Below, piece after piece: positions 14,901 through 47,900 of a stretch of DNA of 64,000 nt. Position numbers and translations under genes: made by a program. Within the stretch, counting starts at the first letter, position 1. Each line of letters begins with the position of its first letter. The DNA comes from Alphaproteobacteria bacterium. GTDB lineage: Bacteria; Pseudomonadota; Alphaproteobacteria; G965222575. The stretch lies in NCBI GenBank assembly GCA_965222575.1, contig OZ244958.1, positions 768,001-832,000 of the forward strand, written 5' to 3'. Below the pieces are notes generated by a model. That model was given only the letters and a program-made list of their open reading frames with translations. It made no database searches and was not told the origin of the DNA.

Positions 14901-17900
14901 GGCAGTTTTATCGATTAGAACAAGGCTTTTTTATGCTGGAGATCAAACCGGAGGCAGTGAAAAGAACGTGGAATGTAAGTAGCACTTCTTACGAGAGTTC
15001 TGCAGCGCAAGCCTCCCCCCCTAACGAGCATCTAAAAATTCAAGGAATGGGGTCATCTCATGTTTTATTTCGTGACCTTATTCATGTCTCTGGAGTTGAA
15101 ATGGAGGTTGAGAGATTTGGCAGTGAAGTAGGCTTTTTTGATTTTGAAGAGCGGCGCTTTTTCTTTGCTGTTGCTTATGATGTGCAAGACAATGGAGTGA
15201 AGAAAACACTGTTATACGCCTTTAAGAAAGATGACAATGGGGTATTTGCAAAAATCCCCCCTCAGCAACGAGAGCGTGAGGACTCGCGCCAAGACCAAAA
15301 CGATGTTTTTTACAGTAGTGCGCAAACTTACAGCGTCTACTTTTCAGGTCAACACCCTGACAACCCTCAGGGAAAAAAAATACGTGATGATACTGCAATA
15401 GGCCCCATGAAGGTTTTGCCGGGGGAATATGTTGGATTTTTTACGTTTTTCGTTAGTGATTTATGGCGCCATCTGCCGTCTGAAAGGATACCGGCTCGTT
15501 ATGGAGGTAGATATTACTCAGAAATTTTTACGGGCAGGACAGTATCCCAAGGAAGTGTCGGAACGGGTAGTCTTATCCGTTACCGTGTTATAGGTGCTAT
15601 AAAACTTGGTGGTGGTAAAGGGGAGCTTAAGTATTTTTCCATTGGTTCAACTAAAAACCGTGATGGTATTAAGACTCTAAGGGAGGGCAATATCAATCTT
15701 GATATCCCTGGTTCTGAGGGATTGTCTTCTTTATATAACACGGGCTTGGTGACACTCAGGGTTTTGGACAGTTCAGGTATTAATCTTAATGGTAGCCTTT
15801 TCATCACATCAGAGATGAAAATGTTCAGGTTGTCGTTGAATACCGAGATTTTTTATATTGGTGGTAACCCTATGAGCACCCAAGCAGGCTTTAGATTGAA
15901 GGACTATCGCGCTACTAAGGGAAAAAGTTCTTATAGTATGGTCCTAACGCTAGTAGAGGGACGAGAAGAAGTTGGCACACGGGTTTTAGAGCTCTTAAAG
16001 GGGACGAGTCTGCAAATCAGTGAATTAGGAGCCGAAGAAATAAAATGGTTCGTTGGCGATAGAAGAAAAACCAGTATCTCTGTTTTGAAGAAAAGTGGTG
16101 TGACGTTCTTTTTAGCAGTGGGAGAGCCTTTTGTTTCAAAGGGCAGAGTGACGGTGTTTCGATCCAGTGAACAGGATTTTTCAGATGGGCGTGAAGTCTT
16201 TTCGTTAGAAAATCCAAGTAAGGACGGTCTTTTTGGTTGGTCTGTGAAGATGCATTTTCTGGACAGAGATGGAATAGGTATTGGCCTTCCTGAGCCGGTG
16301 CTGTTTGTGGGGGCACCTACTGACCCTGAAGCGAAGGCTAGCACCTATAAGGGGGAGGTACACCTCTATTCTTTCGGGAAAAATGATAAAGGTGAGTATG
16401 ACTATGCCCCTCTACAAACACTGGGTTTGGAGTATGGTTACGAAGCACTGGACTTGCGTGGCTTTGGATATGCCTTAGCGGCCGTGAGATCCTCTCTCAT
16501 CGTTAGTGTACCAACATCATACAAGTCTCTTGGCACAATCTTTGCGCACGGAGGACTCTTTGTATATCACTGGGATAATGATAAGTATGTACTCAAACGT
16601 ACAGAGCTTATGTTTACAGGAGCAGTACCGCGTCCTACAGCTCCAGGTGTCGTCTTTTCGCATCGAACTTCTATTGGTGGCGTTAATAGGAACTTTGGCG
16701 CGGAGGTAGGGGCTTTTATCTACTTTGAGAGCGATTATAGCAAGGATCCCAAGTATCAGGAAAATCCATACACTATCGTTGACCCATGGGTGGCTCATTC
16801 GGTTGATGGTACATACTATTGGGGTATAAATAGAAAAGGCGGAAGCCAGGGAGACTTCCTGCAACGCGACGACGCTCGTGCATATTATCAAAATTATTTT
16901 AAGGGGACACCCCATTTTTATACTGCTGCTTATAATGCGGACAGTTCGAAAACCGTGTTGATATTCTTTAGGGTAGGAGCTGACGGGGGCGTAGACTTCA
17001 CACAAGAGAAAGAACTTGACGGAGAGGTCGGGTCATTTTTTCCCTTTCGGCATAAAGTGTGGCATAGCGCGAATCGAAGCAGTAGTTACTATAACTTATG
17101 GTATACGTCTGATATTTATGTGTGGAAAAATGATGCAAATAGTCGTCTTTATCTCCATAACGTCCCTGTTTATTTGAATGTGATAGGAGGGCTTACCTAT
17201 ACGGCCGAAGAGAAAGGGGAACTTATGTTGATTACGTTGCGCCTGCCACAGCAGCCATATCCAAAAGATCATAATTCTGCTTCCATTACACAAATAACCA
17301 AGCAGACCACAACGTTGTCTCTTGATACACTCTCTCTTGGGGTCGGTTTCACTGATGCTTATAATCCTTCTAAAGTCAGCATTGATGTTGTGGACGGTGC
17401 TAAGATTAACGAGCACGTTTTTGTAACGACAAAGTTGGAAACTTTCCGACTTGGTTACGCAATTGGAGGAGTAGGTGTTCGACATGCCGGCAAAGGTCCT
17501 ATAACATTAGTGCCGTCTTTGCAGGGAGCACATGAGGCTTTCAAGTTAAGAGAAAAAGTGGAGGAAACCAGAACAAGAGTTGTGTTCTTGAACCCCCAAG
17601 CAAGGGCAGAGGGGGTGAGTTTGCCGAACAAGGTGGCGTTGCCGGGTCCTGACCAGGAGCTATTGATCTTTCAAGGGATTGCGTCAATTTCTGTCTTAAA
17701 GGCCTCTGCTCATAAGTTTTACTTAGCCTTGGGAGACCCTACTGATAATAGTAATACAGGTAAGGCTGTGGTGTTTGAAATGGGGCATTACGACTTTTCA
17801 GATGTGCAGAAAACCTTTGAGGTTGAAGGAAGTGCTGCGGGAGATTGGTTTGGCTGGTCTGTGAAGTTACAGTTACTAGATAGGGACGGCGGGGGTGCTG

Positions 17901-20900
17901 GCCTTCCTGAGCCAGTGCTGTTTGTAGGCGCGCCTAAAGCCAAAAATGGAAAAGGTTCTGTGGAGGTCTTTGACTTCAAAAAGAAGATCCTTATTCAAAC
18001 CCTTAGTCCAGAGGCTTCCTTAACTTATGTGCGCGCCTTTGGGTATAGTTTAGGCGGCGGTATTTACAAGAAGCGCCAATTTATTAGAGGTCCCCCTGTG
18101 ACAGAAGACGAAGAGGAGGTACACAATTACCTTCTTGTAGGAGCGCCTGCTAGTGTGCAGTCAGATAGCGTTGATACTCAAGACGGGGCGGCGTTTGTGT
18201 ACAAATGGAACAATGGAGAGGGAGCGGGAGGCGCAACAGTACCCGGAGCCTATGAACTCAAAGGTGTAGCAAGGCCGCCAGACGGGAGTCATATAACAGT
18301 AGGCAGCGTTGTGGAAGGGCAGCTACCTGATAGTGCTACTGTTGGGGGGGTTGACGTTGCCTTGTCTGTCTACAACGAGCATTTTGGCGCTTCTGTTGGG
18401 TTTGTGAATTATGACAGTATCCCCCTTCTTTATGTTGTGAGTTATAATAGTGATAGGACAGGGACAGCTATTTCCGCTTTTCAGTTGTTGAGTAGTGGCA
18501 CCGATGCTGTGAGTTATGGGGGGACGCTTTCAAAAGTAGTAGAGGGGGAATACGGCGCTTTCTTTACATTACCGATACAGGCATGGGAAGTGTCCTACTT
18601 TGAGGGTTCTGCCCAGTATAAGTGGTTTTTGAGTGAGACAGAGGCAGATACCTTTACTCTTCCTGTCGATAGCCTTCACGAAAAGACGGAAAAGACGGCT
18701 ATTGACGTTTTAGGCTTTTTAGTTCGTGGAATAGGGGGGGACTTAACAGTCAAATATGGGGTTGTGAATCCTAATGCAGGAGGGATTGATTTTCAAAGTC
18801 CTGAGATTAAAATTAATACGGGGATAGGTGTGCTTGTGGGATTCACGACTTTATATAGGACCACCAATAAGCTTTCCTTTGCGGCACTTCGGGATCGACT
18901 GTTGATAGGACAGGGAGTAGAGGTGTATATTGCTCCGTTGACTGTGAATGATGAAAAAAATATCACCATAGGGAGTTTACAGACAGTAGCAACACCAGCA
19001 ATTACTTTCACTGAAGTTACAGCCATTGACGTCTTGAAGGAATCTGATAATAAGTTTTACTTAGCGGTAGGAGAAGCTACTGATACTAGTGAGAAAGGTA
19101 AGGTTACAGTGTATGAGGGGACGGATTCTGCGTTTGCCGATATTGCGGTCAAGTTTACAAAGAGTGGAGACAGTGAGGGGGATAGGTTTGGCTGGTCTGT
19201 GAAATTAAATTTATTGGATAAGGACGGAGCGGGTAGTGGCACTCCTGAGCCAGTGCTCTTTGTAGGCGCGCCTAAAGCCAACAGTGAAAAAGGGTATGTG
19301 AAGGTCTTTAATGTTGATGTGTCGGGGTCGTTTATTCAAACCATTAAGTTTGCTCATAAGACTTTCAACAAGATAGCTCTCTTTGGATATAGCATAGGGG
19401 CTAGGGGTGAACACCTTATAGTAGGCATGCCTGGAAGTATAAGAGGCGGGAAGCCCTCTGGAGGGGCTATAGCCCTGAAATGGAACACTTTGAGCAAGCG
19501 GTTCAAATTAGGCAAAGTTTACCTTTACATCACCGACAATGCTCACTACGGAGGCACTTCAGTCGGGGTTTTCATGCACAACAATACAACGCCCTATTTT
19601 TATTATGCGCACTATAGCCCCAGTTCATCAGCCACCGTCATTAGATTGCGCAAGTACGATGGGGGGCATAAGAACTTGGAGGGAACTGAAAAAGACGACG
19701 GAGTCGTATACGGCTCCTTATTTACCATACCGGTTGAGAAGAGTGATGGTAGCTCTACAGAGCTGTTAGGCCTCCTGTACAAGGATGGAGACCAGTTAAA
19801 GATTAAATATGCTTCATTGGCTGTTACGCACCCAAGGAGTAAAAGGAATTTGTTGCCTAGCCTAGGCGATATAGACATTCCTGGGGATGTTGTGGCTGGT
19901 TTTACGCTTCCTGAAACCTATGATACTGACCCTATGCCTAGAAGGTGGTCTTTTGCGGCGCTTCCGGGTCGTCTGTTTATGGGACATGGAGACAAGGTGT
20001 ATGTTGCTTCGTTGACTGTGCCTTCTGTAAGTTTGAGAGGAATAGTAGGAGAAACCTCGCGTCGAGTGGAAAGTGTGACGTTTGATATAGAGAATATAAG
20101 GAAGGCGTCGCTCCCCTTAGGGAAAGTGGCAAAAGTTGTTTTTGACGAGATTTCCTCCCTTTCTGTTTTAAGGGTCACAGATAGTAAGTTCTATTTTGCG
20201 GTAGGAGAATCGGGTTTTGAGGACTTTACAGGTAGGGCTGTGGTGTTTGAGTCGAAAGATTCTGCGTTTTCCGATATCATGCAAAAGTTTGTGATTAAAG
20301 GAGACAATGCAGGGGATTGGTTTGGCTGGTCTGTGAAGTTGGGGCTACTAGATAAGGACGGAGCGGGTGCTGGCCTTCCTGAGGCAGTGCTGTTTGTGGG
20401 GGCGCCTCAAGTGGGGGTGCCTCAAGCGCAAGCCAAGGGTCTTGTGCAGATTTATACCGTTAGGAGTAAGGGAAAACTTCAAACCATAGAGCCGACCTCA
20501 AATGATAATCGCGCCTTTGGCTATAGTGTGGGTGGTGGCTTGCATGAAAACAGCGGTTCATCCTTTCTTGTTGTAGGGGCGCCGCATAAGACGCTTCAAA
20601 GTACAACCGGAGGCAAGGTTTACTTTTATGAATGGAAGGCAGGGCAGTATATCTTGAAAGAAGCGTTTGAGTCCTCTAGTAGCAGTGATACCAACTTTGG
20701 TTTTGCAGTGGGGAGCTTCCTGTATAGTACAACGCCTTATTTTTATGTTGCGGATACCCGTACGACCAGCATTGTTCTTTCCTTCTACCAAGTCAGGGGG
20801 AATGATGTGTTGGTCAAGCGCTTGGAGACCTACAGAAATGGCGCATGGTGGAAAGTGTCCTATGAGGAGGAAGGTGCTCAAGTTTACGAGTGGTATAGCT

Positions 20901-23900
20901 TAGAGTCCGAGGCAGATGCCCGCGTAATGGCACTTGGTGCTGCTTCTCCTTCGGTACAAGCTCAAAAAGTAGCCTACACAGGTGACACAGGTGAATACGG
21001 TTCTCTCTTTACCATACCGGTGAGTGCATGGAAAGTGTCCTATGAGGAGGGAGGTGCTAAAGCTTACGAGTGGTATAGCTTAGGGTCCGAGGCTACTGAC
21101 CGCGTAACGGAAATTGGTGGTAGCGCTTCAGCACAAGAGGGGTATGTAGAGGTTTTAGGCCTCCTGTACAAGGATGGATTACAGTTAAAGAGTAAATATG
21201 CGGCATTGTCTTTTACGACCCCAGGGAGTTTGTTGGCTGACCTAGGTGAGATAGACATTCCTGGAATAGACATTCCTGGAGATGTTGTGGCGAATTTTGG
21301 GTCTCCTTCCACCTATTTTGTTGATGTTGCTAGTACCGCTGTGCCTCGCAGGCTGTCTTTTGCGGCGCTTCCGGATCAGCTTTTTGTTGGAACGGGCTCA
21401 AGTGTGCAGATTTCCGCTTTAACGCCATCTAATCTGGAGGTTATACGTTCTTCAGATACTTCATCTTCTATGAAGGTATCTGGCGTTTTGGTCAACAATG
21501 GAATCAAGAGTTTGTCCTTGACAGCTAATGGCGGTGTTGCTGATGTGCTGTTCCTCGTAGAGGAGGAGGAAGAAGCAGCAACAATTAGTTTCACTGAGAT
21601 TACGTCAATTGATGTCTTGGAGTTTGATGATAATGGTGTTGATAAGTTTTACTTAGCTGTGGGAGAAGCTACTGCTAATAATGAGAGGGGTAAGGTTGTG
21701 GTGTTTGAAGGGTCGAATTCTGAGTTTGCCGATATCGCGCAAAAGTTTAATCTTAAAGGAAACAATGCGGGGGATTGGTTTGGCTGGTCTGTGAAGTTAA
21801 ATTTATTGGATAAGGACGGAGCAGGTAGCGTAAATGCTCCTGAGCCAGTGCTCTTTGTAGGCGCGCCTAAAGTCAACAATGGAATAGGTTATGTGAAGGT
21901 CTTTGACTTTAATAAGAGGGTTATTCAAACCATTAGGTTTGCCCATGGAGCTGTCGATATAAAGCTCCTTGGATATAGCATAGGGGCTAGGGGTGAACAC
22001 CTTATAATGGGTGCGCCTGGAACTACACATGGAACGTATACCATTGGAGCAGTGATATATGGAAAATGGAACACTGCGACAAAGCTGTATACCATGAAGA
22101 TTTCTGTATACGCCCACACGTCACGTGTTTACTTTGGCAATGAAGTCGGGATTTTCCTGCACGCAACGCCCTATTTTTATGCTACGTACTATTACTCACC
22201 CGGGAAATATACCACCGTTAGACTTTTCAAATACGACAGTGGGAATTATCTTCGAGATGTGAGGAGAGAAGGTGTCCGATTCGAATACGGTTCCTTATTT
22301 ACCATACCGGTTGAGAAGAGTGATGGTAGCTCTACAGAGCTGTTAGGCCGCCTGTACAAGGATGGAGCACAGTTAAAGATAAAATATGCGACATTCAATC
22401 CCTTGCTTACAACAGGCCGCTTTCTTGAGGATCGAGGCGAGATAGATATAGAAGGGGATGTTGTGGATGAGTTTACGCTTCCTCCAACCTATGATAATGA
22501 CCCTATGCCTAACAGGTGGTCTTTTGCGGCGCTTCCGGGTCGGCTGTTTATCGGAAATGCAGCAGGGGTGAGGAGTGCCCTTCTTACTGTGGATGATACT
22601 TCTAATCCGTGGACTATTACCCTAGGGAGTTTTGTACAGGCAGTAGGTACACCAGTAGGTACAACAGTAGCACCAGTAGCACCAGTAGCACCACCACCAT
22701 TTACTTTCACTAAAATTACGTCAATTTCTGTCTTGAAGTTTGCTGATAATAAGTTTTACTTAGCTCTGGGAGAAGCTGGTGGAGATGATAGTAAAGGTAA
22801 GGTTGTGGTGTTTTCGGCGGCGGATTCTGCGTTTGCCAGTAGCCAGCAAAGTTTTCATGTTTCAGGACAAAGTGCGGGGGATTACTTTGGCTGGTCTGTG
22901 AAGTTACAGTTACTAGATAAGGACGGCGGGGGTAGCGTAAATGCTCCTGAGCCAGTGCTCTTTGTAGGCGCCCCTAAAGCCAACAGTGGAGTAGGGTATG
23001 TGAAGGTCTTTGGCCTTGATGGGTCGAAGATTGCAAAGATTACGCCGCCTGCTTCTAATGTGCGCGCCTTTGGGTATAGTTTAGGCGGCGGTATTTACAA
23101 GAACCGTCAAGGCAGTAGTAGGAATGTTAATCCTAACACGATGACGCAAGCGCAAGTTGAGGCTTCTCTTAATCCTTTCGATATAAGGGAAGTGACAGAG
23201 AAAGTGGAGAATTACCTGTTGGTGGGGGCGCCTGAGAGTGTGAATACAGATAATACTCAAGTCGGGGCAGTGTTTGTGTACAAATGGTTCAATGGAGGGG
23301 ATAAAGGATTCTATAACTTCAGCATGACAATAACTCCGAGTCAGGCGACTGCGTTGCCTTCTACTGATGGAAGACATTTTGGCGCTTCTGTTGGGTATTT
23401 TAGTTATAGTAGTTGGGGCTTGCATATTTATGTTGTGAGTTATAATAGTACGCATACCAGGACAGCTATATCCACTTTTAGATTCAGTGGTAGCCTTTAC
23501 TATCGCGATAACCTGTCAAAGTATAATATAGTTGGGGAATACGGCGCTTTCTTTACATTGCCGGTACAAGCATTGAAAGTGAGCTACTTGGCGTGGTATG
23601 CGCCAGGAGGAGCATCCGAGAAGTTTGATTTTTCTTGGTCTGCGCCCGCCCCGACAATGAGTCAGCCGATAACTCACTTGCCGGGGTGGAAGATGGGTGA
23701 TAGTGGTGAGTCCTTCAGAAAAAGTGGCTTGGCTCTAAAGACGGAAGAGGATTCTATTGAAGTCTTGGGCTTTTTGGTTCGTGAATCAGGGAGCTTAAAA
23801 ATCAAATATGGGTTTGTGGATGAGACTGCAGGGATAGGGATAAGTGTCAATGCTCAAAGTTCTGATATTTCCATTACTACGGAGACACCGGTAGATGTGG

Positions 23901-26900
23901 GATTCACGGGTTTATATGAGAGCAAGCCTTCCTTTGCGGCCCTTCCGGATAACCTGTTTATAGGACATGGAGAAAAGGTGTACAATGCCACTTTGAATGC
24001 TACTGCAGTAATTAAGGCACAAGCCCGGCGATTGGAGAGTGTGACTTTTAGCATAGACTCTCCGGCAGAGCTTACACTCCCTCCAGTTGTTGCACTTGAT
24101 TTTACTGAGATTACAGCCATTGACGTCTTGAAGGTTGCTGATAAGTTTTACTTAGCAGTAGGAGAAGCTACTGTTAATAGTAATACAGGTAAGGTTACGG
24201 TGTTTGAGGGGCCGGATTCTACGTTTGCCGATATTGCGCAAACCTTTATGGTTGAAGGAGAGGCTGATGAGGAGAGGTTTGGCTGGTCTGTGAAATTACA
24301 TTTATTGGATAAGGCCGGAAATGGCACTCTTGTGCCAGTGCTCTTTGTAGGCGCACCGAAAGCCACCATTGGAAGCACCAGTGGAGCAGGATATGTGAAG
24401 GTCTTTGATGTTGTTGTTGGTGATGGGGTGGATAGGAATATTCAAACCATTACTTATGTTTCTGCCGATGCCACCACCCAAGTAAGTCTCTTTGGATATA
24501 GTATAGGGGCTAGGGATGAACACCTTATAATAGGGGCGCCTGGAACTACATACACTTCAACATCCTCAGTAACCACAACCATTGGATTGATTAGGTTCCT
24601 GCAATGGGACACTACGAATTCGGAGTATGGCGGCATACAAGAAACAGTAATCGAGGACGGCAGTCGATATTTATACTATGGCGCTTCAGTCGGGACTTTC
24701 CTGGACAATACAAAGCCCTATTTTTATGCTACGCAACGTTTTGGCACAAGCACCGTCATAAGACTTTATGAATACATAACGGTTGATGGGAGTTATGAGT
24801 CGGTGAAACAGACAATAGGGGGTGCTGACGCTAAGTTTGAAATCTCACTCGACGGAATCGAATACAGCTCCTTCTTTACCATACCGGTTGAGAAGAGTGA
24901 TGGTAGCTCTACAGAGCTGTTAGCCTTCCTGCACAAGGATGGAGGACAGTTAAAGATAAAATATGCGCTATTGGATGTCACGCTTACAAGCGGATTTCTT
25001 GATTATCGAGGCGATATAGACATTCCTGGGGATGTTGTGGCTGGGTTTGCGATTCCTGAAACCTATGATACTGACCCTATGCCTAGCAGGTGGTCTTTTG
25101 CGGCGCTTCCGGGTCGTCTGTTTATTGGATATGGAACAGAGTTGAGGAATACCTCTCTTACTGGGGTTGATGAACAGATACCACCACCACCACCAACAGC
25201 ACCAACAGCACCAACAGCACCAACAGCAATTACTTTCACTGGGATTACAGCCATTGACGTCTTGAAGGAATCTGCTAATAAGTTTTACTTAGCTCTTGGA
25301 GACTCTACTGATAATAGTAATACCGGTAAGGTTGTGGTGTTTGAGGGGACGGATTCTGAGTTTTCTACTCTCACGCAAACCTTTGAGGTACTAGGAGACA
25401 ATGCGGGGGATTGGTTTGGCTGGTCTGTGAAGTTGGCGCTACTAGATAGGGACGGTGATACTGCTACGCTTTCTCATGAGCCAGTGCTCTTTGTAGGCGC
25501 GCCGAAAGCCACCCTTGGAGGCACCAGTGGAGTAGGGTATGTGAAGGTCTTTGATATTAGTGGGTCGGCTATTAAAACCATTACGCCGCTTAATTCCAGA
25601 GCTTATAATTGGCCTAACGTTCTGACGGTTGCCGCGACCTCCCCCACCTCCTTAGCTAATGTGCGCGCCTTTGGGTATAGTGTGAGTGGCAGTATGCACA
25701 CAACACCTGCATTTGTAAGAAGTATACCTGGTGGTATGGCAGCCGCCGAAAGTTATCTGTTTGTGGGGGCGCCTGAGAGTTACAGTGGAGAAGGAGCGGT
25801 GTTTGTGTACCGATGGAGCGGTGGAGTGGGATTGCCATACGAAGCACCAGGCGGAGAATATGCACTGAAAGGTGTAGTAAGTCCGACGGTGATATCTGAT
25901 CTTAATGATAACGTGTATTCTTCGCTATCCAAGATTCCGGCTGGTGGGAGCGCGTGGTCTGCTGATTATAGCAACCACTTTGGGGCTTCTGTTGGGTATA
26001 ATGTTTATAGAGGTAAGCTTTCTCTTTATGTTGTGAGTTATAATAGTGGGCATACCGAGACAGCACTGTCCGCTTTTGATGTGTCCGGCAATGCTTATTT
26101 TCTCATCCCTGAGAGTACGAAGGTTGAAGTTGGGGAATACGGGGCTTTCTTTACTCTGCCGGTAGTAGAAAACACGGAATCTTATACAGTCTTGGGCTTT
26201 TTGGTTCGTGACAGTGGCTTAAAAATCAAATATGCCTTGCAGAGTGCAAGCGGGATTAGTTTTCAAAGTGCTGATATCACCATTCCTACGGGGACAGGTA
26301 TAACAGATGTAGGTGAGAAATTCACGAATTTGTATACGACCACCAATAAGCTTTCCTTTGCGGCGCTAACAGATAAGCTGTTTATTGCACAGGGAACAGG
26401 CGTGAAGCGCACCTCTCTTACGGCTTCTGGAATCACTATTGTTAGTGGTGGGGGTACTGTGTACATCAATGCTGTGTCGTTTAACATAGGGAATACTATG
26501 GAGACTTTGATAGGGCAGGCACCAACAGCACCAACAGAACCAACAGCAATTACTTTCACTGGGATTACAGCCATTGACGTCTTGAAGGAATCTGCTAATA
26601 AGTTTTACTTAGCTCTTGGAGACTCTACTGATAATAGTAATACCGGTAAGGTTGTGGTGTTTGAGGGGACGGATTCTGAGTTTTCTACTCTCACGCAAAC
26701 CTTTGAGGTACTAGGAGACAATGCGGGGGATTGGTTTGGCTGGTCTGTGAAGTTGGCGCTACTAGATAGGGACGGTGATACTGCTACGCTTTCTCATGAG
26801 CCAGTGCTCTTTGTAGGCGCGCCGAAAGCCACCCTTGGAGGCACCAGTGGAGTAGGGTATGTGAAGGTCTTTGATATTAGTGGGTCGGCTATTAAAACCA

Positions 26901-38900: not shown

Positions 38901-41900
38901 GGCATGTTGCTTATAACAGACACTTTGGCGCTTCTGTTGGGTATCTTAATTATCATAATTGGGGCGTCCATCTTTATGTTGTGAGTTATAATAGTAATCA
39001 TAGTGGGACAGCTATTACTTTTTTTGGAAGTGATGATACTCAACTGCTCTATCGGAAGAACCTTACGAGTAAAAATTACCAGGAACACGGCGCCTTCTTT
39101 AATCTGCCGGGAGGACAAGTGAATCCTGTTGAAGCCTTTGGCTTTTTGAATCGGGACCCCTATGGGAACTTGAAAATCAAATATGGGATTATGAAAGGGG
39201 ATCTCAATACAGGAGCAACAAGCCAACTGCGGATTGATTACCAAAGTACTCCTGATACTTCCATTGATACGGGGACAGATGTAGGTGCGAGATTCACGAC
39301 TTTATATAGGACCACCAATAAGCTTTCCTTTGCGGCGCTGACCGATACACTCTTTGTTGCGCAAGGAGCAAATGTGTATAGTGCCTCTTTTGCTCTCAAT
39401 CCATCGAGCACTACGCAGAAGCTTGCCATTACAGCAAAGGTTGATGTTGTCACTTTTACTAGGATTACAGCGATTTCTGTCTTGAAATTTACTGATGATA
39501 AGTTTTACTTAGCCGTGGGAGAAGTTGCTGATAGTAGTGAGAGGGGTAGGGTTGTGGTATTTAAGGGGCCGGATTCTGTGTTTTCCGATATCCATCAAAT
39601 CTTTGAGGTACCAGGAGACAATGATGGGGATTGGTTTGGCTGGTCTGTGAAGTTACAGAAATTGGGTTCTGAGCCAGTGCTCTTTGTAGGCGCGCCTAAA
39701 GCCAACAGTGGAGTAGGTCATGTGAGGGTCTTTTCCGTTGATGATAGTCAGAGGGTGATTCAAACCATTAAGCCGCCTATTTACTCAATGTTTTATGTGC
39801 GTGCCTTTGGGTATAGTTTAGCCGGCGGTATTCACGCAACAACGAACAATTACCTGTTTGTGGGGGCGCCTTTGAGTATGCTTGACGGTGTTGAACAAGG
39901 AGCGGCGTTTGTGTACAAATGGAACGGCAGCACAGCCTATGAACTGAAAGGCATAGCAAGGCCCATGGCGGAGAGTTATGGTAACGTGCCGGCATCAGTT
40001 AGGACAGGGAATCCCAGTGGGGCTCCGTGGCATGATGATTATAGCAACCACTTTGGCATTTCTGTTGGGTTTGTTATTAGTTACAGTGTGCCTTATCTTT
40101 ATGTTGTGAGTTATAATAGGGAGAGGACAGAGACAGCACTGTCCGCTTTTAATTTGAGTAACGATAATGTGCGTTATCTAGGGAACCGTTCGAAGGTTGT
40201 AACTGGGGAATACGGGGCTTTCTTTAATCTGCCGGTAGAAAAGAGCGGGCAGCTTTATGAAATCTTGGGCTTTTTGGTTCGTGACAGTGGCTTAAAAATC
40301 AAATATGGGGTTGTGAATTGGCAACAAGGAGGGGTTCATTTTCAAAGTCCTGATATTTCCATTGATACGGGGACAGATGTAGATGCGGGATTCACGAATC
40401 CCTATGAGATCAACAATAAGCTTTCCTTTGCGGCCCTTCCGCTCCTTGCGCGGCAGAAGCCGGGTCAGCTGTTTATAGGACAGGGAACAAGCGTGAAGCG
40501 TACCTCTTTTGGTGAATTACCCTCTGATGGCGACGACAACCCCTATGACGATGTCACCCCATGGTTACGGGTTAGTAGTAGTATCGGCGTCACTAGGGTA
40601 CGGTTTGTCAGAGGGGATGATTTGGTAGAGATGGAATTGTCTTCAGGGGGACGAGAAACAGAAGCGGTTAGTTTCACTGAGATTACAGCCATTGATGTCT
40701 TGAAGTTTGCTGAGGATAAGTTCTATTTAGCAGTAGGAGAAGCTACTGTTAATAGTCATAGAGGTAGGGTTGTGGTGTTTGAAGGGACGAATGCAGCGTT
40801 TGCTGGTGTCAAGCAAAGGTTTACAAGGATTGGAGACGAAGTGGGGGATATGTTTGGCTGGTCTGTGAAGTTACAGAAATTGAGTTCTGATCCAGTGCTC
40901 TTTGTAGGCGCGCCGAAAGCCAGCAGTGGAGTAGGTCATGTGAAGGTCTTTGGCCTTGATGGGGCGGATATTCAAACCATTAGGCTTACTGCCTTAACTT
41001 ATGTGCGCGCCTTTGGGTATAGTGTAGACGGCGGTATTCACGAAAGAATAAGCGGCGGTGTCACAACAACGAACAATTACCTGTTTGTGGGCGCACCTGC
41101 GAGTACACATAACAATGCTGAAGAAGGAGCGGTGTTTGTGTACAAATGGGACAGCGGAACCTATGCACTGAAAGGCGTAGCAAGGCCGACAGCGGGGAGT
41201 CATGGTAGCGTCGGGAGTGCTGCGAGTGCGCATCCCAGTGGTTCTGCGTGGGATGCTGATTATAGCAACCACTTTGGTGCTTCTGTTGGGTATGCTAATT
41301 TTAGAGGTGAACCCCATCTTTATGTTGTGAGTTATAAGAGTGAACATACAAAAGGGACAGCCATTACTGTTTTTGGAATAGATAATGCAGATGCACTGCT
41401 CTATCGGGATAACCTTACGAGTGTACATCGAGAGGCATACGGCGCCTTCTTTTATCTGTCACTAGGACAAGTGAATCCTGTTGAAGGCTTGGGCTTTTTG
41501 TTTCGTGAAGAAAATGGGGATTTAAAAATCAAATATGGGGTTATGAAAGGGGATATCAGTACAGGAACGATTCATTACCAAAGTATTTATGATACTCCCA
41601 TTGATACGGGGACAGGTATAACAGATGTAGGTGCGGAATTCACGGACTTATATGCGGCCACCAATAAGCTTTCCTTTATGCCTCTTGCAGATATACTCTA
41701 TGTTGCACAAGGACAAAATGTGTATACGACCTCTTTTGCTCTCAATCCATTGAGTACTACGCAGCTTATCTTTGTAGCAAAAGGAAAAGATTTCACTACA
41801 ATTACGTCAATTTCTGCCTTGAAGTTTGCTGATGATAAGTTCTACTTAGCCGTGGGAGACCCTCATGATAGTGATAGTAATAAGAGGGGTAGGGTTGTGG

Positions 41901-44900
41901 TGTATGAGGGGCCGGATTCTGAGTTTTCCACTCTCACGCAAATCTTTGAGGTAGCAGGAGAGAATGAGGGGGATTGGTTTGGCTGGTCTGTGAAGTTGTC
42001 CCTACTAGATAGGGACGGAGGGGCTGATGCGTATGCTCCTGAGCCAGTGCTGTTTGTAGGCGCGCCTAAAGCCAGCAGTGCAGATGGAGCCACCAGTGGA
42101 GTAGGGTATGTGAAGGTCTTTGGTATTAAGGGGGATGAGATTCAAGACATTCCGCCGCCTGCTGATTTAACTTATGTGGGCGCCTTTGGGTATAGTGTGA
42201 GCGGCGGTTTTTTTACAAGCCGATATTCTGGTTATTACCTGCTTGTAGGGGCGCCTAAGAGTACACATACTGCCCCTGCCCCTGCCCCTGGTGGCGTTGG
42301 CGTTGTTGGCGGCAGTGGTACTGTTACAGAAGAACAAGGAGCGGCGTTTGTGTACACATACGGGGAAAACAACGGAGAATATGAACTGATGGGCATAGCA
42401 AGGCCGACAGCGGGGAGTCATGGTAGTGGCGACTTGCCTAGAAATGTGCTGGGGGCTCCGGAATTGGTTGATTGGCTGGGGAGACCTATAAGGGATCCAG
42501 TGTGGGATGTTAATTATAGATACCACTTTGGTGCTTCTGTTGGGTATTTTCTTGCACTTGGGAGAGACACTACTCCCTATCTTTATGTTTTGAGTTATAA
42601 TAGTAATAGGACAGGGACATTTATGTCCGCTTTTACTTTGAGTAGTCGTGGGCGGGCGCGGGTGGAGTGGGATGAAGACTCTTCGACGCCTATAACTGGG
42701 GAAGTCGGTGCTTTCTTTATTCTGCCGGCAAAAGAGACCTATCGGGATTATAATAGGGATATTGGTAGGTGGGAGTTTCTGGTGAGGGAAATCTCTTTCT
42801 TTGGCTTTTTGGTTCGTGACATTGACAGTGGCTTAAAAATTAGATATGGGATTGGGGGGGGAGGAGTTCTTTTTGCAACTTCTGATACTATTCCTACGGG
42901 GACAGGTGTAACAGATGTAAAAGATGTAGGTGAAAAATTCACGACTTTGTATAGGACCACCAATAAGCTTTCCTTTGCGGCGCTTCCGGATCAGCTGTTT
43001 ATAGGACAGGGAACAAACGTGTATCATACCGCTTTTGGGGCGACCAAACTCCCTAATCCTGATAATCCCCCTATACTAGGGTTTACCATAGGGAGTATAA
43101 AGACTTTGATAGAGCCAGCAGAGAGCGGAGATTTAATCGATGGTCTTACTGGGATTGCGTCAATTTCTGTCCTGAAGGTTGCTGCTAATGAGTTCTATTT
43201 AGCCGTAGGAGACCCTACTGATAATAGTAATACCGGTAAGGTTACAGTGTTTGAGGGGACGGATTCTATGTTTTCCGATATCAAGCAAACCTTTGATGTT
43301 GTAGGAGAAGCTGAGGGGGATTGGTTTGGCTGGTCTGTGAAGTTGGGGCTACTAGATAGGGACGGTGATACTGTTACGCTTTCTCCTGAGCCAGTGCTCT
43401 TTGTAGGCGCGCCGAAAGCTCAGTTAGTCGATCGAGGTCTGGGTATTATTAAGGTCTACACCATTAGGGATGAGCAACTCCTTCAAAGTGTAACGGTCTC
43501 CGACGCCGGCGAATGGGCAGATAACGCCTTTGGGTATAGTGTAGACGGCGGTTTTCATGTAGGGACCTCGAAATCCTATCTTATTGCCGGCGCGCCGAAA
43601 GTGACCTCTGCTGATGCTAGTAATGAAGCGTATGCGTTCATTATGGAATGGAACCCTAGCTCGGGGAGCTATGAACTGAGCCAAACCTTCACTTCATCTG
43701 AGCCTAAGTTTGGTTCTGAAGTGGGGATTTTCCTGTCCAGTCCAGTACCCTATTTTTATGCGAAGAGCCATCCTGCTTCTGCTACTACCAAGATTACCTT
43801 TTACGAAAAAGGGTCCAATGACGAAAAAGGATCCAAAACCCTCACCGGCAACTTCGGTTCCTTCTTTACCATATCAATTCAGTTGGCGGATGGTAGGGAT
43901 GCAGAGGCTTTAGGCTTTTTCCATCCGCAATCAGAGTCTTTAGAGATACAATATGCGGATGTGGATTTGACGGCTACAGGTGAGGATATTCTGACTGAAA
44001 GCGGTGCGATCTCCATTTCGACGGAGATACCTGTAGGTGCGGGATTCACGAATATATATGAGACCGATAGGATTGCTTTTGCGCTACTTGAGAATGGACT
44101 CTTTATAGGACAGAAAACAGCGGTGCAACGTGTCATTTTGACTGTGAATGTTCTCCAGAAGATGACCATAAAGCCTTTGGTAGAGCTGGACTTGTTTTCA
44201 CAGACAGCAGGGGTTAGTTTCACTGGGGTTGCATCAATTTCTGTCTTGAAGACTATTGATAAGTTTTACTTAGCCGTAGGAGACCCTGCTGATAGTGATT
44301 ATAGCGGTAAGGTTACGGTGTTTGAGGGGACGGATTCTGAGTTTTCCGATATCACGCAAACCTTTGATGTTACAGGACATGGTGATTGGTGGTTTGGCTG
44401 GTCTGTGAAGTTGGGGCTACTAGATAGGGACAATGAGGGTACGACGCATGCTCCTGAGCCAGTACTTTTTGTGGGGGCGCCGAAACTTCGGATATCAGAC
44501 AGCTACGGTCTGGGGGTTATTAAGGTCTTCACCTTGAAAATAAATACTCTGGGAAGCCGATTCCTTCAAGATGTAACGATAGACGCTGGCGGCAACTGGG
44601 ACGATAACGCCTTTGGGTATAGTGTGGACGGCGGCTTTCATGCAGGGACCTCAAAATCCTATCTTATTGCAGGCGCACCGCGAGTGAATCCTACTGATAC
44701 TGGTAATAAAGCGTATGTGTTCATTATGGAATGGATCCCTGAGGCGGCGGCGGCGAACTCTAAGTTGGGGAGCTATCAACTGAGCCAAACCTTCACTTCC
44801 TTCACTTCAACTGAGCCTAAGTTTGGTTCTGAAGTGGGGATTTTCCTGTCCGGCGCAGTGCCCTATTTTTATGCGAAGAGCCATCCTGCTTCTGCTACTA

Positions 44901-47900
44901 CCAAGATTACCTTTTACGGCAAAGGGGCCAAAACCCTCACCGGACACTTCGGTTCCTTCTTTACCATACCAGTTCAGTTGGCAAATGGTAGGGATACAGA
45001 GGCTTTAGGCTTTTTGAATCGGAAAGAAGACGGGGCTTTAGAGATACAATATGCGGATGTGGATTTGACGGCTAGAGGTAAGAAGATTCTGACTGAACGC
45101 GGTGCCGTCTCCATTGAGACGGAGATACCTGTAGGTGAAGGATTCACGAAGTTATATGACACAACTGATAGGATTGCTTTTGCGGCACTTGAGAATAGGC
45201 TCTTTATAGGACAGAAAACAGCGGTACACAATGTCCTTTTGACTGTGGATTCTCTTCAGAAGATGACCATAAAGCCTTTGATAAGTACCTTGCCAAGTAG
45301 AAGCAAGACAGCGATTTCTGTTTTGAAGGTGGCGAATGGTGAGTTCTATTTAGCAGTAGGAGAACCTACTGTTAATAAGAATGCAGGGAGGGCTGTGGTG
45401 TTTGGAGGGAGGGATTCTGCGTTTTCCGATATCAGGCAAACCTTTGAGGTTACAGGTGCTACGGGGGATTGGTTTGGCTGGTCTGTGAAGTTGCATCTGT
45501 TGGATAAGGACGGAAATGGCACTTTTGTGCCAGTGCTCTTTGTAGGAGCCCCTAAAGCCACCACTGGAGCAGGGTATGTGAAGGTCTTTGATATTGTTGG
45601 GGCGGAGATTCAAGACATTCTGCCGCAAAATGGCACTGTTCTTGCCTTTGGCTATAGCATAGCAGCTACGGGCGACCACCTTGCCATAGGGGCGCCACAA
45701 AGCAGTAGAGGTAGGGGGAACATAGCATTCTACAAATGGGACACGGCGACGACGGCGTATACCTTTCAAAACGCTTTTACTTTTTTTGAGGCACGTGTCC
45801 ATGGTGCTGAAGTCGGGGCTTTCCTGTACAATGATACGCCCTATTTTTATTCTACGTCCTATAGCGATGACAGTACCACCATTAGATTTTTCCAATACGA
45901 AAACAACAGTTATATCTTATCTCACACTCAGACATACCAAGGCGAATACGGTTCCTTCTTGAACATTAAAGTCAAGACAAAAACCAGGACACAAACTAGT
46001 GAGGAGGTCCTAGGCGTCCTCTTACGCGAGCCAGATGGGTCCTTAAAGATAAAATATGCGGCTTTTTATGGAACAGAAACGCAGGACTTCGCAACCTTCC
46101 AAGAGATTCCCATGAATAGAAAGGCGGAGACTTCATTTAAGACTTTATATACCACCACCAATAAGTTTTCCTTTGCGGCGCTTCCGGATCAGCTCTTTAT
46201 TGCGCAGGGAGCAAGTGTGTATAGAACCCCTCTTACTCTACTTACTTTGGTGTTAAAGGACCAAGCATTGAAGGTAGAGAATTTAGGCTTTCCTATAGGG
46301 GCTCTTGCGCAGCAGAATTTTGACATAAAGGCAACAATAGGAGAGAAAACAATTACGAGCACGCAAGGACTCTCTTTCTCAGTGTTGAAAGTCACAGATG
46401 AGTTGTTCTATTTGGCCATAGGAGACCCTTCCCGTAACGGCAAGGTGGTCGTGTTTGAAGGAGTGTACGCCGACTTTTCCTCCTCACAACAAAAATTTCA
46501 ACTAGAAGGGGAAATTCCCGGTAGTTGGTTTGGTTGGTCTGTGAAGTTGGATCTGTTGGATAAGGACGGAGCAGAGGGGGCTGGCCTTCCTGAGCCGGTG
46601 CTCTTTGTGGGGGTACCAAAAATCAACAAAAACACAGGCCTTGTGAAAATCTTTTCCATCATGCCGGACAGCATTCGTGAGTTGCACTTCCTCAAATCTC
46701 CTGTCCTCGAATCTCTTGCAGATATTTCTGTTGAAGCCTTTGGCTATAGTATAGGGGCGTTAGGCCAGTACCTTGCCATAGGGGCGCCACAAACCAATGA
46801 GGATAAAGGTGCCGTCTTCTTCTATACATGGAACGTTGAGAATCAACGATATCAACTCAACGAAGCGGCTTTTGTTGGGGTTAATCCTACAATAACTGAC
46901 GTTGTAGTCCATGAGATGGCAGGGACTATCACTCATAGTAGTGCTTCTCTTGCGCCTATGCACTTCGGCGCTGAAGTGGGAGACTTCAGTTATAAAAACA
47001 TGATATCGCCCTTTTTGGCAGGTAATCTCTCCCGCGCGCCGGACTATTATAGGAACAACGACTATTTTTACAGCGTCGGATATAATGCTGACCATACAAA
47101 AACCATCTTGTACCTCTTTCACAAACAAGATGATGGGGATGATGTGACATTTACACAAGTCTCATCAAAAGACCCTTCCGACCCTCCAGCTCCAGCTCCA
47201 CAGGTGTTTGATGAAGAGTTAGGCTCCTTCTTTACCTTCCATGTAGGCCCCATATGGGAAGTATGGACTTCAAAACAAGGACAACTCAGTCGGCGGTTGA
47301 GTGAAACGCTGCCTAGAGGAGGAGGAGATACCTTCTTCAGCGCTTTACAACTCCGTAGCTTAGGGGCTTTAACCAGTGACGGCGCAGTGAAATACTATCT
47401 CTCCCTATTTCATCCAAGAACCTCAGGGACTATCAAATTGGAAGTTGATGAGGAAGGCGCCCTCACTGTAACGCAAAAATTTGCGCTGCCTAGTAAAGAC
47501 GATTTTAAATCTATTCTTATTAAAGAGGTTAGCTCTGCTACACCGGAAAATGCTAGCTTTGTGCCTCAACTGTTGTCTTTACCATTGTATGGAATTTTGC
47601 CCGGTAGAAACTTCACCTCTTTATATCATCCTGCTAGGGTGGACTTAAATGTGCTAGAAGGGGACTACATTGGAGAACACGTTTTCTTTGCAGGGCTAAA
47701 AACTTTCCGATTGCAACAAAAAGGAGACATAGCCGTATCGGCTGTTGCTGCTACTGTCAATTTATTTGTGAAGAGTGATCCCTCTTCCGTCAACTTGCCT
47801 TTTGCCTATGAGAAAGTGGAGACAGAAGATTTTCAGAGCCTCTCTGCTTTGCAGGTGAGAGACGATCTCTTCTATTTAGCCATGGGCTATCCTTCTGTGG

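What the first reader, a model, noticed from the sequence alone, without database searches (positions are those of the whole stretch)
17670..46300. Constant framework with hypervariable loops: an antibody-like repertoire encoded in tandem in one gene
Seen: every module keeps the same skeleton (FT.IT.I.VLK...KFYLA.G...GKV.VFEG...FGWSVKL.LLD.DG...PVLFVGAPKA...FGYS...VGAP...FG..VG...EYG.FF..PV...LKIKY...SFAAL...LF..G). Segments at fixed positions differ completely in sequence and length: after IQTI, after FGYS.xG, after VGAP, before HFGASVG and after LKIKY. These loops are often rich in Y/W/R/H/S (e.g. ISRRARRLPKQKHSGSY; DKKEASSAAYWRTYKVVG; VSSHWWAFHQGSY). Framework DNA such as TTTGGCTGGTCTGTGAA and CCTGAGCCAGTGCTCTTTGTAGG is conserved even at synonymous sites. 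Inferred: each propeller shows a different binding face, giving a multi-specific receptor array under diversifying selection.
Basis: partly seen in the sequence, partly recalled or inferred. Interest (0 to 1): 0.88.

Follow-up and report, generated by a model that had tools for sequence, protein, structure and literature searches.

The report
Giant gene of 29 tandem propellers
One 42-kb gene, 3.5% of a tiny 1.2-Mb bacterial genome, encodes a probably secreted fibre of 29 similar six-bladed propeller domains whose cores are kept constant while their exposed surfaces and loops have drifted or been pushed far apart.

Summary
A single uninterrupted ORF (window 8981-51307, +, 14,108 aa) holds 29 tandem modules of 352-544 aa; the finding's coordinates cover 23 of them (M04-M26). 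Each module is predicted with high confidence as a six-bladed FG-GAP/integrin-alpha-like beta-propeller. About 60 core positions are near-invariant, also at synonymous sites, while loops at fixed positions differ strongly in length (0-61 aa) and sequence (12-21% identity against 55% for the framework within one module type).

The variable loops lie on both faces of the propeller and on its outer rim, not on one face. Exposed positions evolve at about the neutral rate (omega about 1). An excess over 1 is significant only in the top loops of blades 1-2. The synonymous conservation of the framework is largely explained by concerted evolution: the first two blades ("head") have been homogenised across old module types, and head and body trees conflict.

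Fragments from another strain show module replacement. The N-terminus is weakly TPS-like, there is no cysteine after residue 45, and a candidate TpsB exists elsewhere in the genome. My best reading is a giant secreted multivalent adhesin that evolves by duplication, head-mediated recombination and relaxed or weakly diversifying surface evolution.

The parts
8981..51307 (+). Giant ORF of 14,108 aa (GTG at 8981; in-frame ATGs at codons 23 and 41 are likelier starts). It makes up 3.5% of the 1,215,846-bp genome.
9197..9472 (+). TPS-like secretion segment (aa 73-164), preceded by a hydrophobic signal-like stretch. The protein's only two Cys (aa 32 and 45) lie in that leader.
   Evidence: Pfam PF05860 scores 21-23 bits, below the cut-off of 33.5. 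EtpA 8cpk matches at E 9.7e-4. There is weak collinear BLAST similarity to the genome's 4,201-aa TPS protein. Cys count.
11180..12661 (+). Region with two degenerate partial matches to the module profile (aa 734-802 and 1165-1227). These are probably two older, eroded propellers.
   Evidence: i-E 3.7e-7 and 0.0025
13340..17662 (+). Modules M01-M03: divergent N-terminal propellers, about 30% identical to all other modules, with omega about 0.4.
17663..46342 (+). Modules M04-M26, the stretch of the finding: 23 propellers of several types. Type A is M05, 07, 09, 12, 14. Type B is M04, 08, 10, 11, 13, 15, 20-23. Pairs are M17/19 and M24/25. Singles are M06, 16, 18, 26. Omega is about 0.9-1.0.
25229..27687 (+). 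M10 and M11: a very recent tandem duplication. Bases 25229-26367 and 26549-27687 are identical over 1,139 nt; the copies differ only in tail and linker.
27893..28993 (+). M12, the module that was modelled: 367 aa, 24 strands forming 6 four-stranded blades.
31778..33271 (+). M15, the second modelled module: 498 aa. The basic loop after FGYS is an extended A-B hairpin whose tip has pLDDT below 50. The insert after FFxxPV forms a long hairpin plus a helix.
31704..31766 (+). 9-bp tandem repeat (7 copies) encoding the Pro/Thr-rich linker between M14 and M15. Similar PT-rich linkers separate many modules.
46343..50620 (+). Modules M27-M29: C-terminal propellers of their own type (53-58% identical to each other), with omega 0.34-0.47.
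50621..51304 (+). C-terminal 228 aa without a recognisable family; the tail is acidic.

Best explanation
The stretch is the central part of one giant gene for a secreted or surface-exposed fibre. The protein has a leader and a diverged two-partner-secretion (TPS) type N-terminus, then 29 (plus 2 eroded) six-bladed FG-GAP/integrin-alpha-like beta-propellers joined by short Pro/Thr-rich linkers, then a short C-terminal region of unknown family.

Shown:
- The array grew by tandem duplication of one- or two-module units. The latest duplicate, M10/M11, is still identical over 1.1 kb.
- The first two blades of each module ('head') have been homogenised among otherwise ancient module types. Head and body therefore have different histories. 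The head carries most of the long exact DNA matches that can serve as homology for RecA-dependent recombination; recA is present.
- Within each module the inner strands (A, B) are under purifying selection. The outer strand, both loop faces and the length-variable inserts change at about the neutral rate, with a small excess in the top loops of blades 1-2.

Inferred:
- The protein is exported through an outer-membrane TpsB-like partner and acts as a long multivalent adhesin of a host-associated bacterium with a reduced genome.
- What selection keeps is the fold, the open frame and the number of propellers. The diverged surfaces offer many different, probably low-affinity, contact sites.
- Between strains, modules are replaced or converted by recombination in the conserved head and tail.
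For: Anatomy: a single 14,108-aa ORF with 29 modules.

Fold: the M12 model has pLDDT 87.9, pTM 0.90 and 24 strands; the M15 model has pLDDT 79. The best Foldseek matches are integrin alpha propellers (E 7e-8, TM 0.55-0.58). VIA gives Z 22.6 for integrin aL, tied with six-bladed phytase (21.7) and NHL (21.2). The module profile hits integrin aIIb at E 1.3e-9. Pfam FG-GAP_2 scores 34.6 bits against a cut-off of 23.

Secretion: TPS-like N-terminus. A ShlB/TpsB candidate of 581 aa scores 23.0 bits against a cut-off of 22.7. There is no Cys in aa 46-14108.

Selection: omega by structure-defined class over 8 independent sister pairs is A 0.54, B 0.38, C 0.73, D 1.34, top loops 1.45 [1.12-1.89], bottom loops 1.06. 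ML GY+F3X4 on 22 central modules gives body 0.96 and head 0.93; strands A+B 0.69 and 0.40 (both significantly below 1); head top loops 1.83 (p 0.0015); body top loops 1.20 (p 0.07); body bottom loops 1.30 (p 0.10). Terminal modules have omega 0.34.

Concerted evolution: between types A and B, dS is 0.34 in the head and 1.62 in the body. Head data reject the body tree (dlnL 188) and body data reject the head tree (dlnL 1066). Of 373 exact matches of at least 25 nt between modules, 261 lie in the first 300 nt of a module, and 194 of 406 module pairs share one. RecA is present.

Strain comparison: four ENA-derived fragments tile aa 7933-11149 contiguously. In them the slot of M16 holds a module 95% identical to M12, with an M11-like linker and an M13-like head. 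Terminal modules are 93-97% identical between strains, central ones 55-95%.

Genome: 1.216 Mb in one contig, an ankyrin-repeat protein, and a second 4,201-aa TPS protein.
Against: No expression, localisation or binding data exist, and no RNA holder was listed.

The TPS match is below Pfam's cut-off. The TpsB candidate is barely above its cut-off and lies about 41 kb from the gene, not next to it.

An omega of about 1 over 22 modules fits pure drift of a spacer as well as it fits binding diversity.

The face assignment rests on strand order in the DSSP strings and on propeller topology; no coordinates were available.

NG86 and one-ratio ML ignore recombination, which is demonstrably present.

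The other-strain fragments come from one unnamed contig with three frame breaks. Assembly chimeras or a decaying allele cannot be excluded.
Confidence: 0.55

Rival explanations
1. One reading: a germline-encoded, co-expressed repertoire. Each propeller presents one hypervariable binding face with its own specificity, kept diverse by positive selection, making a multi-specific receptor array.
For: Loops at fixed positions are 12-21% identical against a 55% framework and vary by up to 61 aa in length. Top-face loops give omega 1.45 [1.12-1.89] by counting and 1.83 (p 0.0015) in blades 1-2 by ML. Columns that are variable in type A have omega 1.36 [1.01-1.84] in type B pairs. Integrins bind ligands on the homologous top face (recalled knowledge).
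Against: Variable segments lie on both faces and on the rim. Bottom loops are the most divergent class between strains (identity 0.71). Two of the three cross-validated sets and the body loop classes do not exclude omega = 1. Tyr is not enriched in the loops (0.9x). The tip of the showcase basic loop is modelled with pLDDT below 50. The conserved 'framework DNA' is explained by head homogenisation.
Confidence: 0.15
2. A pure spacer or extender. The propellers only provide length and stiffness, as extender domains do in other giant adhesins. Surfaces drift neutrally, and ligand binding, if any, resides in the terminal parts (M01-M03, M27-M29 or the C-terminal region), which are the constrained ones.
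For: Whole-framework omega in central modules is 0.91-0.96, not different from 1, while terminal modules have 0.34-0.47. Terminal modules are 93-97% identical between strains against 55-95% for central ones. Variation is found on all exposed surfaces.
Against: Extender arrays in known giant adhesins are usually kept nearly identical (recalled). Here 42 kb stay open and 60 core columns stay fixed while the surfaces diverge. Head top loops exceed omega 1. A 1.2-Mb genome spends 3.5% of its DNA on the gene.
Confidence: 0.2
3. A population-level variation device. The conserved heads and tails are recombination handles that let modules be replaced, deleted or duplicated within the array, so that strains or lineages display different sets of surfaces to a host, predator or phage.
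For: Head and body trees are incongruent. Exact matches of at least 25 nt are concentrated in heads. M10/M11 is a fresh duplication. The other strain carries an M12-like module in the M16 slot, an M17/M24-like head on its M21 counterpart, and M06 followed by M08 without M07. RecA is present. The FGWSV-encoding 17-mer is conserved at 22 of 24 synonymous choices even in the six terminal modules whose heads are otherwise saturated (p 1e-7).
Against: There are no silent donor copies outside the gene: all 39 matches in the genome lie in the ORF. No evidence exists for switching within a lineage. The laid contigs could not separate strains from paralogue cross-mapping. The other-strain evidence is one contig with frame breaks.
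Confidence: 0.1

Closest known systems
Integrin alpha-subunit / FG-GAP beta-propellers, including the bacterial integrin-type propellers described by Chouhan et al. 2011 (PMC3192720; I read the abstract and passages found with 'tandem')
   Same: The FG...GAP sequence signature is present in blades 2-3 (Pfam FG-GAP_2; integrin aIIb E 1.3e-9). The best structural matches are integrin alpha propellers. An acidic A-B loop sits where integrin blades bind Ca2+.
   Different: There are six blades by strand count instead of seven. Only two or three blades keep a recognisable motif. There are 29 tandem propellers, whereas that paper reports at most two tandem copies. Only 9 of the 150 listed best hits among 1.84 billion representatives are this gene's own relatives, all fragments (P0001-P0008 and the short P0023). 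From P0009 on, the best stretch covers only the FG-GAP part of the profile.
TpsA exoproteins of two-partner secretion (FhaB, HMW1, EtpA)
   Same: It shares a leader, a TPS-like segment near the N-terminus, great length, absence of cysteine, a TpsB-like gene in the genome, and a second, clear TPS protein in the same genome.
   Different: The passenger is made of propellers rather than a beta-helix. The TPS match is below the curated cut-off. The candidate transporter is not adjacent.
Other giant FG-GAP_2-rich bacterial proteins found in the representative library (for example P0009, 4,274 aa, FG-GAP_2 386 bits plus fn3)
   Same: They are very long, with many FG-GAP repeats that imply several propellers.
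   Different: They match only profile positions of about 20-230 (blades 1-3) of this module and do not share its six-blade unit. None of those listed approaches 29 units or 14,108 aa.
Giant repetitive adhesins with extender domains (RTX adhesins such as LapA, SiiE, MpIBP; recalled, not searched)
   Same: A beads-on-a-string architecture, a huge single ORF, and a presumed surface fibre.
   Different: Their repeats are small Ig-like domains kept nearly identical, they are exported by type I secretion, and they have C-terminal RTX signals. Here the units are 350-540-aa propellers that are 25-79% identical, and no RTX motif was seen.
Diversity systems with constant framework and variable loops (antibodies, VLRs, DGR target proteins)
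   Same: A fixed fold with variable exposed segments at fixed positions.
   Different: There is no diversification machinery. No reverse transcriptase was found in the genome, there are no donor cassettes outside the gene, variation is spread over all exposed surfaces, and it is germline and paralogous.

Membership tests
FG-GAP / integrin-alpha-type beta-propeller | FG-GAP repeat signature recognised by curated profiles | tested here: met
   PF14312 FG-GAP_2 scores 34.6 bits (cut-off 23) on M04-M06 and 26.9 bits on M27-M29. One 1,000-aa piece (window 26000-28999) gave no Pfam hit. The module profile matches PDB integrin aIIb at E 1.3e-9.
FG-GAP / integrin-alpha-type beta-propeller | Beta-propeller fold | tested here: met
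   AF2 pLDDT 87.9, pTM 0.90, all-beta, 24 strands in four-strand groups. Foldseek gives E 7e-8 to integrin propellers. VIA gives Z 22.6.
FG-GAP / integrin-alpha-type beta-propeller | Seven blades | tested here: not met
   M12 has 24 DSSP strands, which is 6 blades. M15 has the same six groups plus inserts. Six-bladed phytase and NHL domains align over the whole model.
FG-GAP / integrin-alpha-type beta-propeller | Ca2+-binding Dx[DN]xDGxxD hairpins in A-B loops | tested here: inconclusive
   Only blade 2 has a conserved acidic A-B loop (LLDxDG..., D in 24 of 29 modules at two columns). It is not a full match to the motif as I recall it, and metal binding cannot be tested here.
TpsA (two-partner secretion exoprotein) | N-terminal TPS domain | tested here: inconclusive
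   PF05860 scores 21-23 bits against a cut-off of 33.5, covering profile positions 16-69 only. EtpA 8cpk matches at E 9.7e-4 over aa 73-164. BLAST to the genome's bona fide TPS protein gives E 0.009 and 2.6e-4.
TpsA (two-partner secretion exoprotein) | Cognate TpsB (ShlB/FhaC-type) transporter, usually adjacent | tested here: inconclusive
   There is one ShlB match in the genome, at 23.0 bits against a cut-off of 22.7, in a 581-aa ORF with a leader and a C-terminal Phe. It lies about 41 kb upstream of the gene, not adjacent. The divergent 664-aa neighbour has no family.
Diversity-generating retroelement target | Reverse transcriptase and template/variable repeat pair | tested here: not met
   PF00078 gives 0 matches in the 97.6%-complete single-contig genome. 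No A-specific bias was seen in the variant spectrum of the laid contigs, which is weak evidence because of cross-mapping.
Cassette-based antigenic variation (expression site plus silent donors) | Silent donor copies elsewhere in the genome | tested here: not met
   All 39 matches to a module in the genome lie inside the one ORF.
Antibody-like / immune-type repertoire | Variable residues form one binding face; distinct specificities per unit | tested here: not met
   For the one-face criterion, variable loops lie on both faces and on the rim. Specificity is not testable with these tools.

The most novel reading that the evidence does not exclude
The array is a co-expressed, germline-encoded repertoire of about 29 different propeller binding surfaces on a single fibre. 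It is renewed by intragenic segmental conversion that uses the homogenised head, with its unusually conserved FGWSV-coding DNA island, as a recombination handle. On this reading a bacterium with a minimal genome keeps, in one gene, a shufflable library of host- or prey-contact sites. That would be a bacterial counterpart of tandem-array recognition receptors, working without dedicated diversification enzymes.
Probability: 0.15. Interest if true: 0.85.

Novelty: new variant of a known kind. Interest (0 to 1): 0.62.

Why it matters
If the reading holds, this is an extreme case of domain amplification: 29-31 whole beta-propellers in one polypeptide, in a genome of only 1.2 Mb from a lineage with no relative closer than class among those searched. 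It shows how a fold core, a recombination-prone conserved 'head' and freely evolving surfaces can coexist in one gene.

It offers a natural series of 29 paralogous propellers for studying which positions a six-bladed FG-GAP propeller tolerates. It also gives a test case for whether multivalent adhesion or a true multi-specific repertoire drives giant genes in reduced, host-associated bacteria.

The module is almost unique. Only fragments of the same gene were found among 1.84 billion representative proteins.

Tried and rejected
DGR or hypermutation: no reverse transcriptase was found in the genome, so this was rejected.

Silent cassettes: there are no module copies outside the ORF, so this was rejected.

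A Chi-like, genome-wide role for the conserved FGWSV-coding DNA: the 12-mer occurs 27 times in the genome, all inside the gene. There is no genome-wide signal, so this was dropped. The local conservation remains unexplained.

Relatives in public contigs: the search for related loci found nothing in genome contigs with M12 or with UvrC, which I tried in order to name the lineage. It found nothing in metagenome contigs with the module alignment. The genome search found the module in 1 of 41 genomes, the window's own genome only; all 40 others were 'same class'.

Sequencing runs: 4 runs were listed and no RNA holder. I laid X1-X3 on window 27893-47818 at 85% likeness. All are Logan contigs, mostly pieces of 250-730 bases. 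More than 1,000 variant places and about 100 joints were reported. However, 157 of 828 (X1), 129 of 584 (X2) and 127 of 241 (X3) laid records fit two places of the stretch, and modules M04-M11 of the same gene can cross-map. Strain variation, recombinant joints and paralogue cross-mapping therefore could not be separated, and I treat this result as inconclusive. X3 (another study) holds pieces that are mostly 90-95% alike or less, which is compatible with a related allele, but I draw no conclusion about habitat or strain.

ESM Atlas searches for the C-terminal 228 aa and for the 664-aa neighbour scored 0.78 and 0.76, below any useful level.

TLC (ATP/ADP translocase) search: no match, but the control rang nowhere, so this is no evidence.

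Dropped rows and runs:
- In the ML class tests, the 'head strand C' run returned default values (omega 1.0, kappa 1.0) and is discarded. 'Head strand D' had only 8 codons and was not run.
- M11 was left out of all ML runs because it duplicates M10.
- In one search the row P0007 against M27 (0.57) is a mis-pairing with a paralogue and inflates the 'terminal' totals. I quote only the single rows P0004/M03, P0004/M04 and P0007/M28.
- The rows P0002/M21 and P0002/M23 (0.58, 0.55) may be partly paralogous.

Literature: the paper search for giant protein + FG-GAP + symbiont gave one unrelated preprint, of which I read passages. A second search gave Chouhan et al. 2011, of which I read passages. I found no paper on this gene in these two searches. 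Supplements were not consulted.

Coordinates of the models are not returned by the tools, so solvent exposure and a true 3-D mapping could not be computed. Faces were assigned from strand order.

Full report
WHAT IS THERE. The window holds one ORF from 8981 to 51307 on the + strand, 14,108 codons without a stop. It lies in a single-contig genome of 1,215,846 bp with 45.7% G+C, so the gene is 3.5% of the genome. The pentapeptide FGWSV occurs 29 times at spacings of 352-544 residues. I cut the protein 62 residues upstream of each occurrence into modules M01-M29. A profile built from them finds 29 full copies and two weak partial matches further upstream, at aa 734-802 and 1165-1227. The finding's coordinates (17670-46300) correspond to M04-M26, which is 23 of the 29 modules.

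In the MAFFT alignment (943 columns), 325 columns are occupied in at least 80% of modules, 38 carry one residue in at least 90%, and 19 are invariant. Between these blocks lie segments of very different length: 0-38 aa after FGYS, 0-21 after VGAP, 0-54 before HFGASVG, 0-56 after EYGxFFTxPV, and a 0-66-aa Pro/Thr-rich linker. Even among the nine distinct type-B modules these segments are only 12-21% identical, against 55% for the framework. Two qualifications apply. First, residual homology is visible in several loops. Second, the insert after FFTxPV is a recurrent, structured element (a long hairpin plus a helix, pLDDT about 70-89 in the M15 model) that is either present or absent. The loops are enriched in H, P, R, W and S (1.3-1.8x) but not in Y (0.9x).

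The DNA claim is also true. The quoted 17-mer occurs 29 times with at most 2 mismatches (25 exact) and the 23-mer 23 times with at most 3 mismatches. None is expected in shuffles. At 60 conserved degenerate columns the top codon is used in 76% of modules, against 38% gene-wide.

FOLD. With the 29 modules as alignment, AlphaFold2 models M12 (367 aa) at pLDDT 87.9 and pTM 0.90 as an all-beta domain of 24 strands in six groups of four. M15 (498 aa) gives the same six groups plus inserts, at pLDDT 79. Foldseek ranks integrin alpha-subunit propellers first (E 7e-8, TM 0.55-0.58). An independent VIA search gives integrin aL at Z 22.6 (rmsd 3.7, 290 aligned), tied with six-bladed phytase (21.7) and NHL domains (21.2). 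By sequence, the module profile matches integrin aIIb at E 1.3e-9, and Pfam FG-GAP_2 is above its cut-off. Each module is therefore a six-bladed propeller of FG-GAP ancestry, with the motif recognisable mainly in blades 2 and 3.

WHERE THE VARIATION SITS. Strand order gives the loop type. In a propeller blade, A-B and C-D loops lie on one face (the 'bottom', where integrins bind Ca2+), and B-C and D-A loops lie on the other (the 'top', the integrin ligand face; this convention is recalled). Two are on the bottom: after FGYS (A-B) and after LKIKY (C-D). The largest insert of all, after FFTxPV, is an A-B loop, also on the bottom. Summed length ranges in M04-M26 are 121 residues for top loops and 114 for bottom loops. 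That count omits inserts falling inside M12's strand spans, which I assigned by hand. The predicted outcome 'one face' is therefore not met. This mapping uses topology, not coordinates, which the tools do not return.

SELECTION. I used Nei-Gojobori counting on eight phylogenetically independent sister pairs of central modules.
- Omega over all 325 framework columns is 0.91 (bootstrap CI 0.79-1.05), against 0.34 for the terminal pair M28/M29.
- To avoid choosing columns by their variability, I classed columns by structure. This gives strand A 0.54, B 0.38, C 0.73, D 1.34 [0.98-1.88], top loops 1.45 [1.12-1.89], bottom loops 1.06 [0.84-1.34].
- As cross-validation, columns variable in type A give omega 1.36 [1.01-1.84] in type-B pairs. 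The reverse gives 1.16 [0.79-1.72], and a third set gives 1.21 [0.72-2.19].

Maximum likelihood (GY+F3X4, 22 central modules, M11 omitted) gives omega 0.96 for the body and 0.93 for the head. By class:
- Strands A+B: 0.69 (body) and 0.40 (head), both significantly below 1.
- Body strand C 1.13; body strand D 1.08.
- Body top loops 1.20 (p 0.07); body bottom loops 1.30 (p 0.10).
- Head top loops 1.83 (p 0.0015, uncorrected); head bottom loops 1.16.
One run was discarded and one class was too small.

In short, the buried core is constrained and everything exposed changes at about the neutral rate. Evidence for omega above 1 is confined to about 25 codons in the top loops of blades 1-2. All these estimates assume one tree per region and ignore recombination.

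WHY THE FRAMEWORK DNA IS SO ALIKE. The modules fall into old types: type A is M05, 07, 09, 12, 14; type B is M04, 08, 10, 11, 13, 15, 20-23; there are pairs M17/19 and M24/25; M27-29 form their own type. Between types A and B, synonymous divergence is 1.62 in the body (blades 3-6) but only 0.34 in the head (blades 1-2), the same as within a type. Head and body give conflicting trees. The head data reject the body tree by 188 log-likelihood units and the body data reject the head tree by 1,066. All tests reject, with the caveat that 1,000 RELL replicates were used and the trees were chosen a posteriori. In the head tree physically neighbouring modules such as M10, M12 and M13 group together.

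The synonymous conservation is thus mostly concerted evolution (gene conversion or unequal exchange) of the head. It also creates recombination substrate. There are 373 exact matches of at least 25 nt between different modules; 261 lie in the first 300 nt of a module, and 194 of 406 module pairs share at least one. RecA is encoded. M10 and M11 are identical over 1,139 nt, which marks a very recent duplication.

One point remains unexplained. The FGWSV-coding 17-mer keeps 22 of 24 synonymous choices even in the six terminal modules, whose heads are otherwise saturated relative to the centre (binomial p 1e-7).

OTHER STRAINS. Among 1.84 billion representative proteins, 16,158 match the module profile at E <= 0.001. 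Of the 150 listed, only nine (P0001-P0008 and the short P0023) are relatives of this gene, all fragments of 152-1,447 aa. From P0009 on, the best stretch covers only the FG-GAP part. P0001, P0003, P0005 and P0002 map end to end onto aa 7933-11149 of the giant protein. P0001 and P0002 are recorded from one source with a longest contig of 15,303 nt. I infer that they are consecutive ORFs of one contig with three frame breaks, caused by sequencing errors or decay.

In that allele the slot of M16 holds a module 95% identical to M12, preceded by an M11-like linker and followed by an M13/M10-like head on an M17-like body. The counterpart of M21 carries an M17/M24-like head. In P0006 an M06-like module is followed by an M08-like one without M07. 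Terminal modules are 93-97% identical between strains (P0004, P0007). Central ones are 55-95% identical, again graded from strand B (0.89) to bottom loops (0.71). Chimeric assembly cannot be excluded for these fragments.

CONTEXT AND LIKELY FUNCTION. The N-terminus has a hydrophobic leader and a segment that weakly matches the TPS secretion domain: Pfam 21-23 bits, below the cut-off; EtpA E 9.7e-4; weak collinear similarity to the genome's clear 4,201-aa TPS protein. After residue 45 there is not one cysteine in 14,063 residues. By established knowledge, this is typical of proteins threaded unfolded through an outer-membrane pore. A 581-aa ShlB/TpsB-like ORF exists about 41 kb upstream (23.0 bits against a cut-off of 22.7).

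The genome is small and complete, has no relative closer than class among the 40 searched, and encodes an ankyrin-repeat protein. It is probably host-associated, which is an inference. The flanking genes are housekeeping: uvrC, pgsA, hda-like and purM on one side, a symporter and dehydrogenases on the other. I therefore read the protein as a giant secreted or surface fibre of about 30 propellers, most likely a multivalent adhesin.

VERDICT. The pattern is real and striking. It is best described as a new, extreme variant of the giant FG-GAP-propeller/TpsA-like adhesin theme. The 'antibody-like repertoire' reading is not excluded, but its two testable predictions fare poorly (one face) or only modestly (excess non-synonymous change).

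Noticed in passing
window 25229-26367 and 26549-27687: M10 and M11 share a perfect 1,139-nt tandem duplicate inside the ORF. The copies diverge only in the last 200 nt or so (tail and linker). Whether this is polymorphic in the population is unknown.
   Followed up: partly
29 sites, e.g. window 14600-14616, 48005-48021: The 17-nt FGWSV-coding island is exact in 25 of 29 modules. It keeps 22 of 24 synonymous choices even in M01-M03 and M27-M29, whose heads are otherwise saturated relative to the centre. Its 12-mer core occurs nowhere else in the genome (27 of 27 hits are in the gene). The reason is unexplained; candidates are micro-conversion, or a DNA- or RNA-level function.
   Followed up: partly
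window 31704-31766 and other inter-module linkers: The linkers are Pro/Thr-rich (PTAPTEPTAP-like). One is a 9-bp x 7 tandem repeat, which could vary in length in frame. Loose ends of laid contigs at 30298, 31707 and 31747 look like other repeat lengths, but this was not resolved.
   Followed up: no
window 6695-8689 (-): A 664-aa ORF runs divergently upstream of the giant gene. It has no Pfam family (best E 0.09) and no useful Atlas neighbour (0.76). Whether it is a partner of the giant protein is unknown.
   Followed up: partly
G000:C1:429846-442448 (+), outside the window: A second large exoprotein of 4,201 aa has a clear TPS domain (80 bits). The only ShlB/TpsB-like ORF (G000:C1:733701-735446) is adjacent to neither TPS-type gene.
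   Followed up: partly
G000:C1:958576-969692 (-) and 1133836-1139643 (+), outside the window: Two adjacent large ORFs (1,525 and 2,127 aa) have collagen-like G-x-y runs and near-identical C-termini resembling phage tail-fibre or endosialidase chaperone ends (by eye). A 1,936-aa ORF ends in ankyrin-like repeats (by eye). These are hints of a host-associated lifestyle.
   Followed up: no
modules M04-M15 (window 17663-33271): Types alternate along the array in the order B, A, single (M06), A, B, A, B, B, A, B, A, B. Sister relations are M09/M12, M10/M13 and M05/M07. This suggests duplication of two-module (A+B) units.
   Followed up: partly
window 20135-21592 (M06): M06 carries the W-x-V hairpin-helix insert twice, about 50 aa apart. 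This is an internal duplication of an insert element.
   Followed up: no
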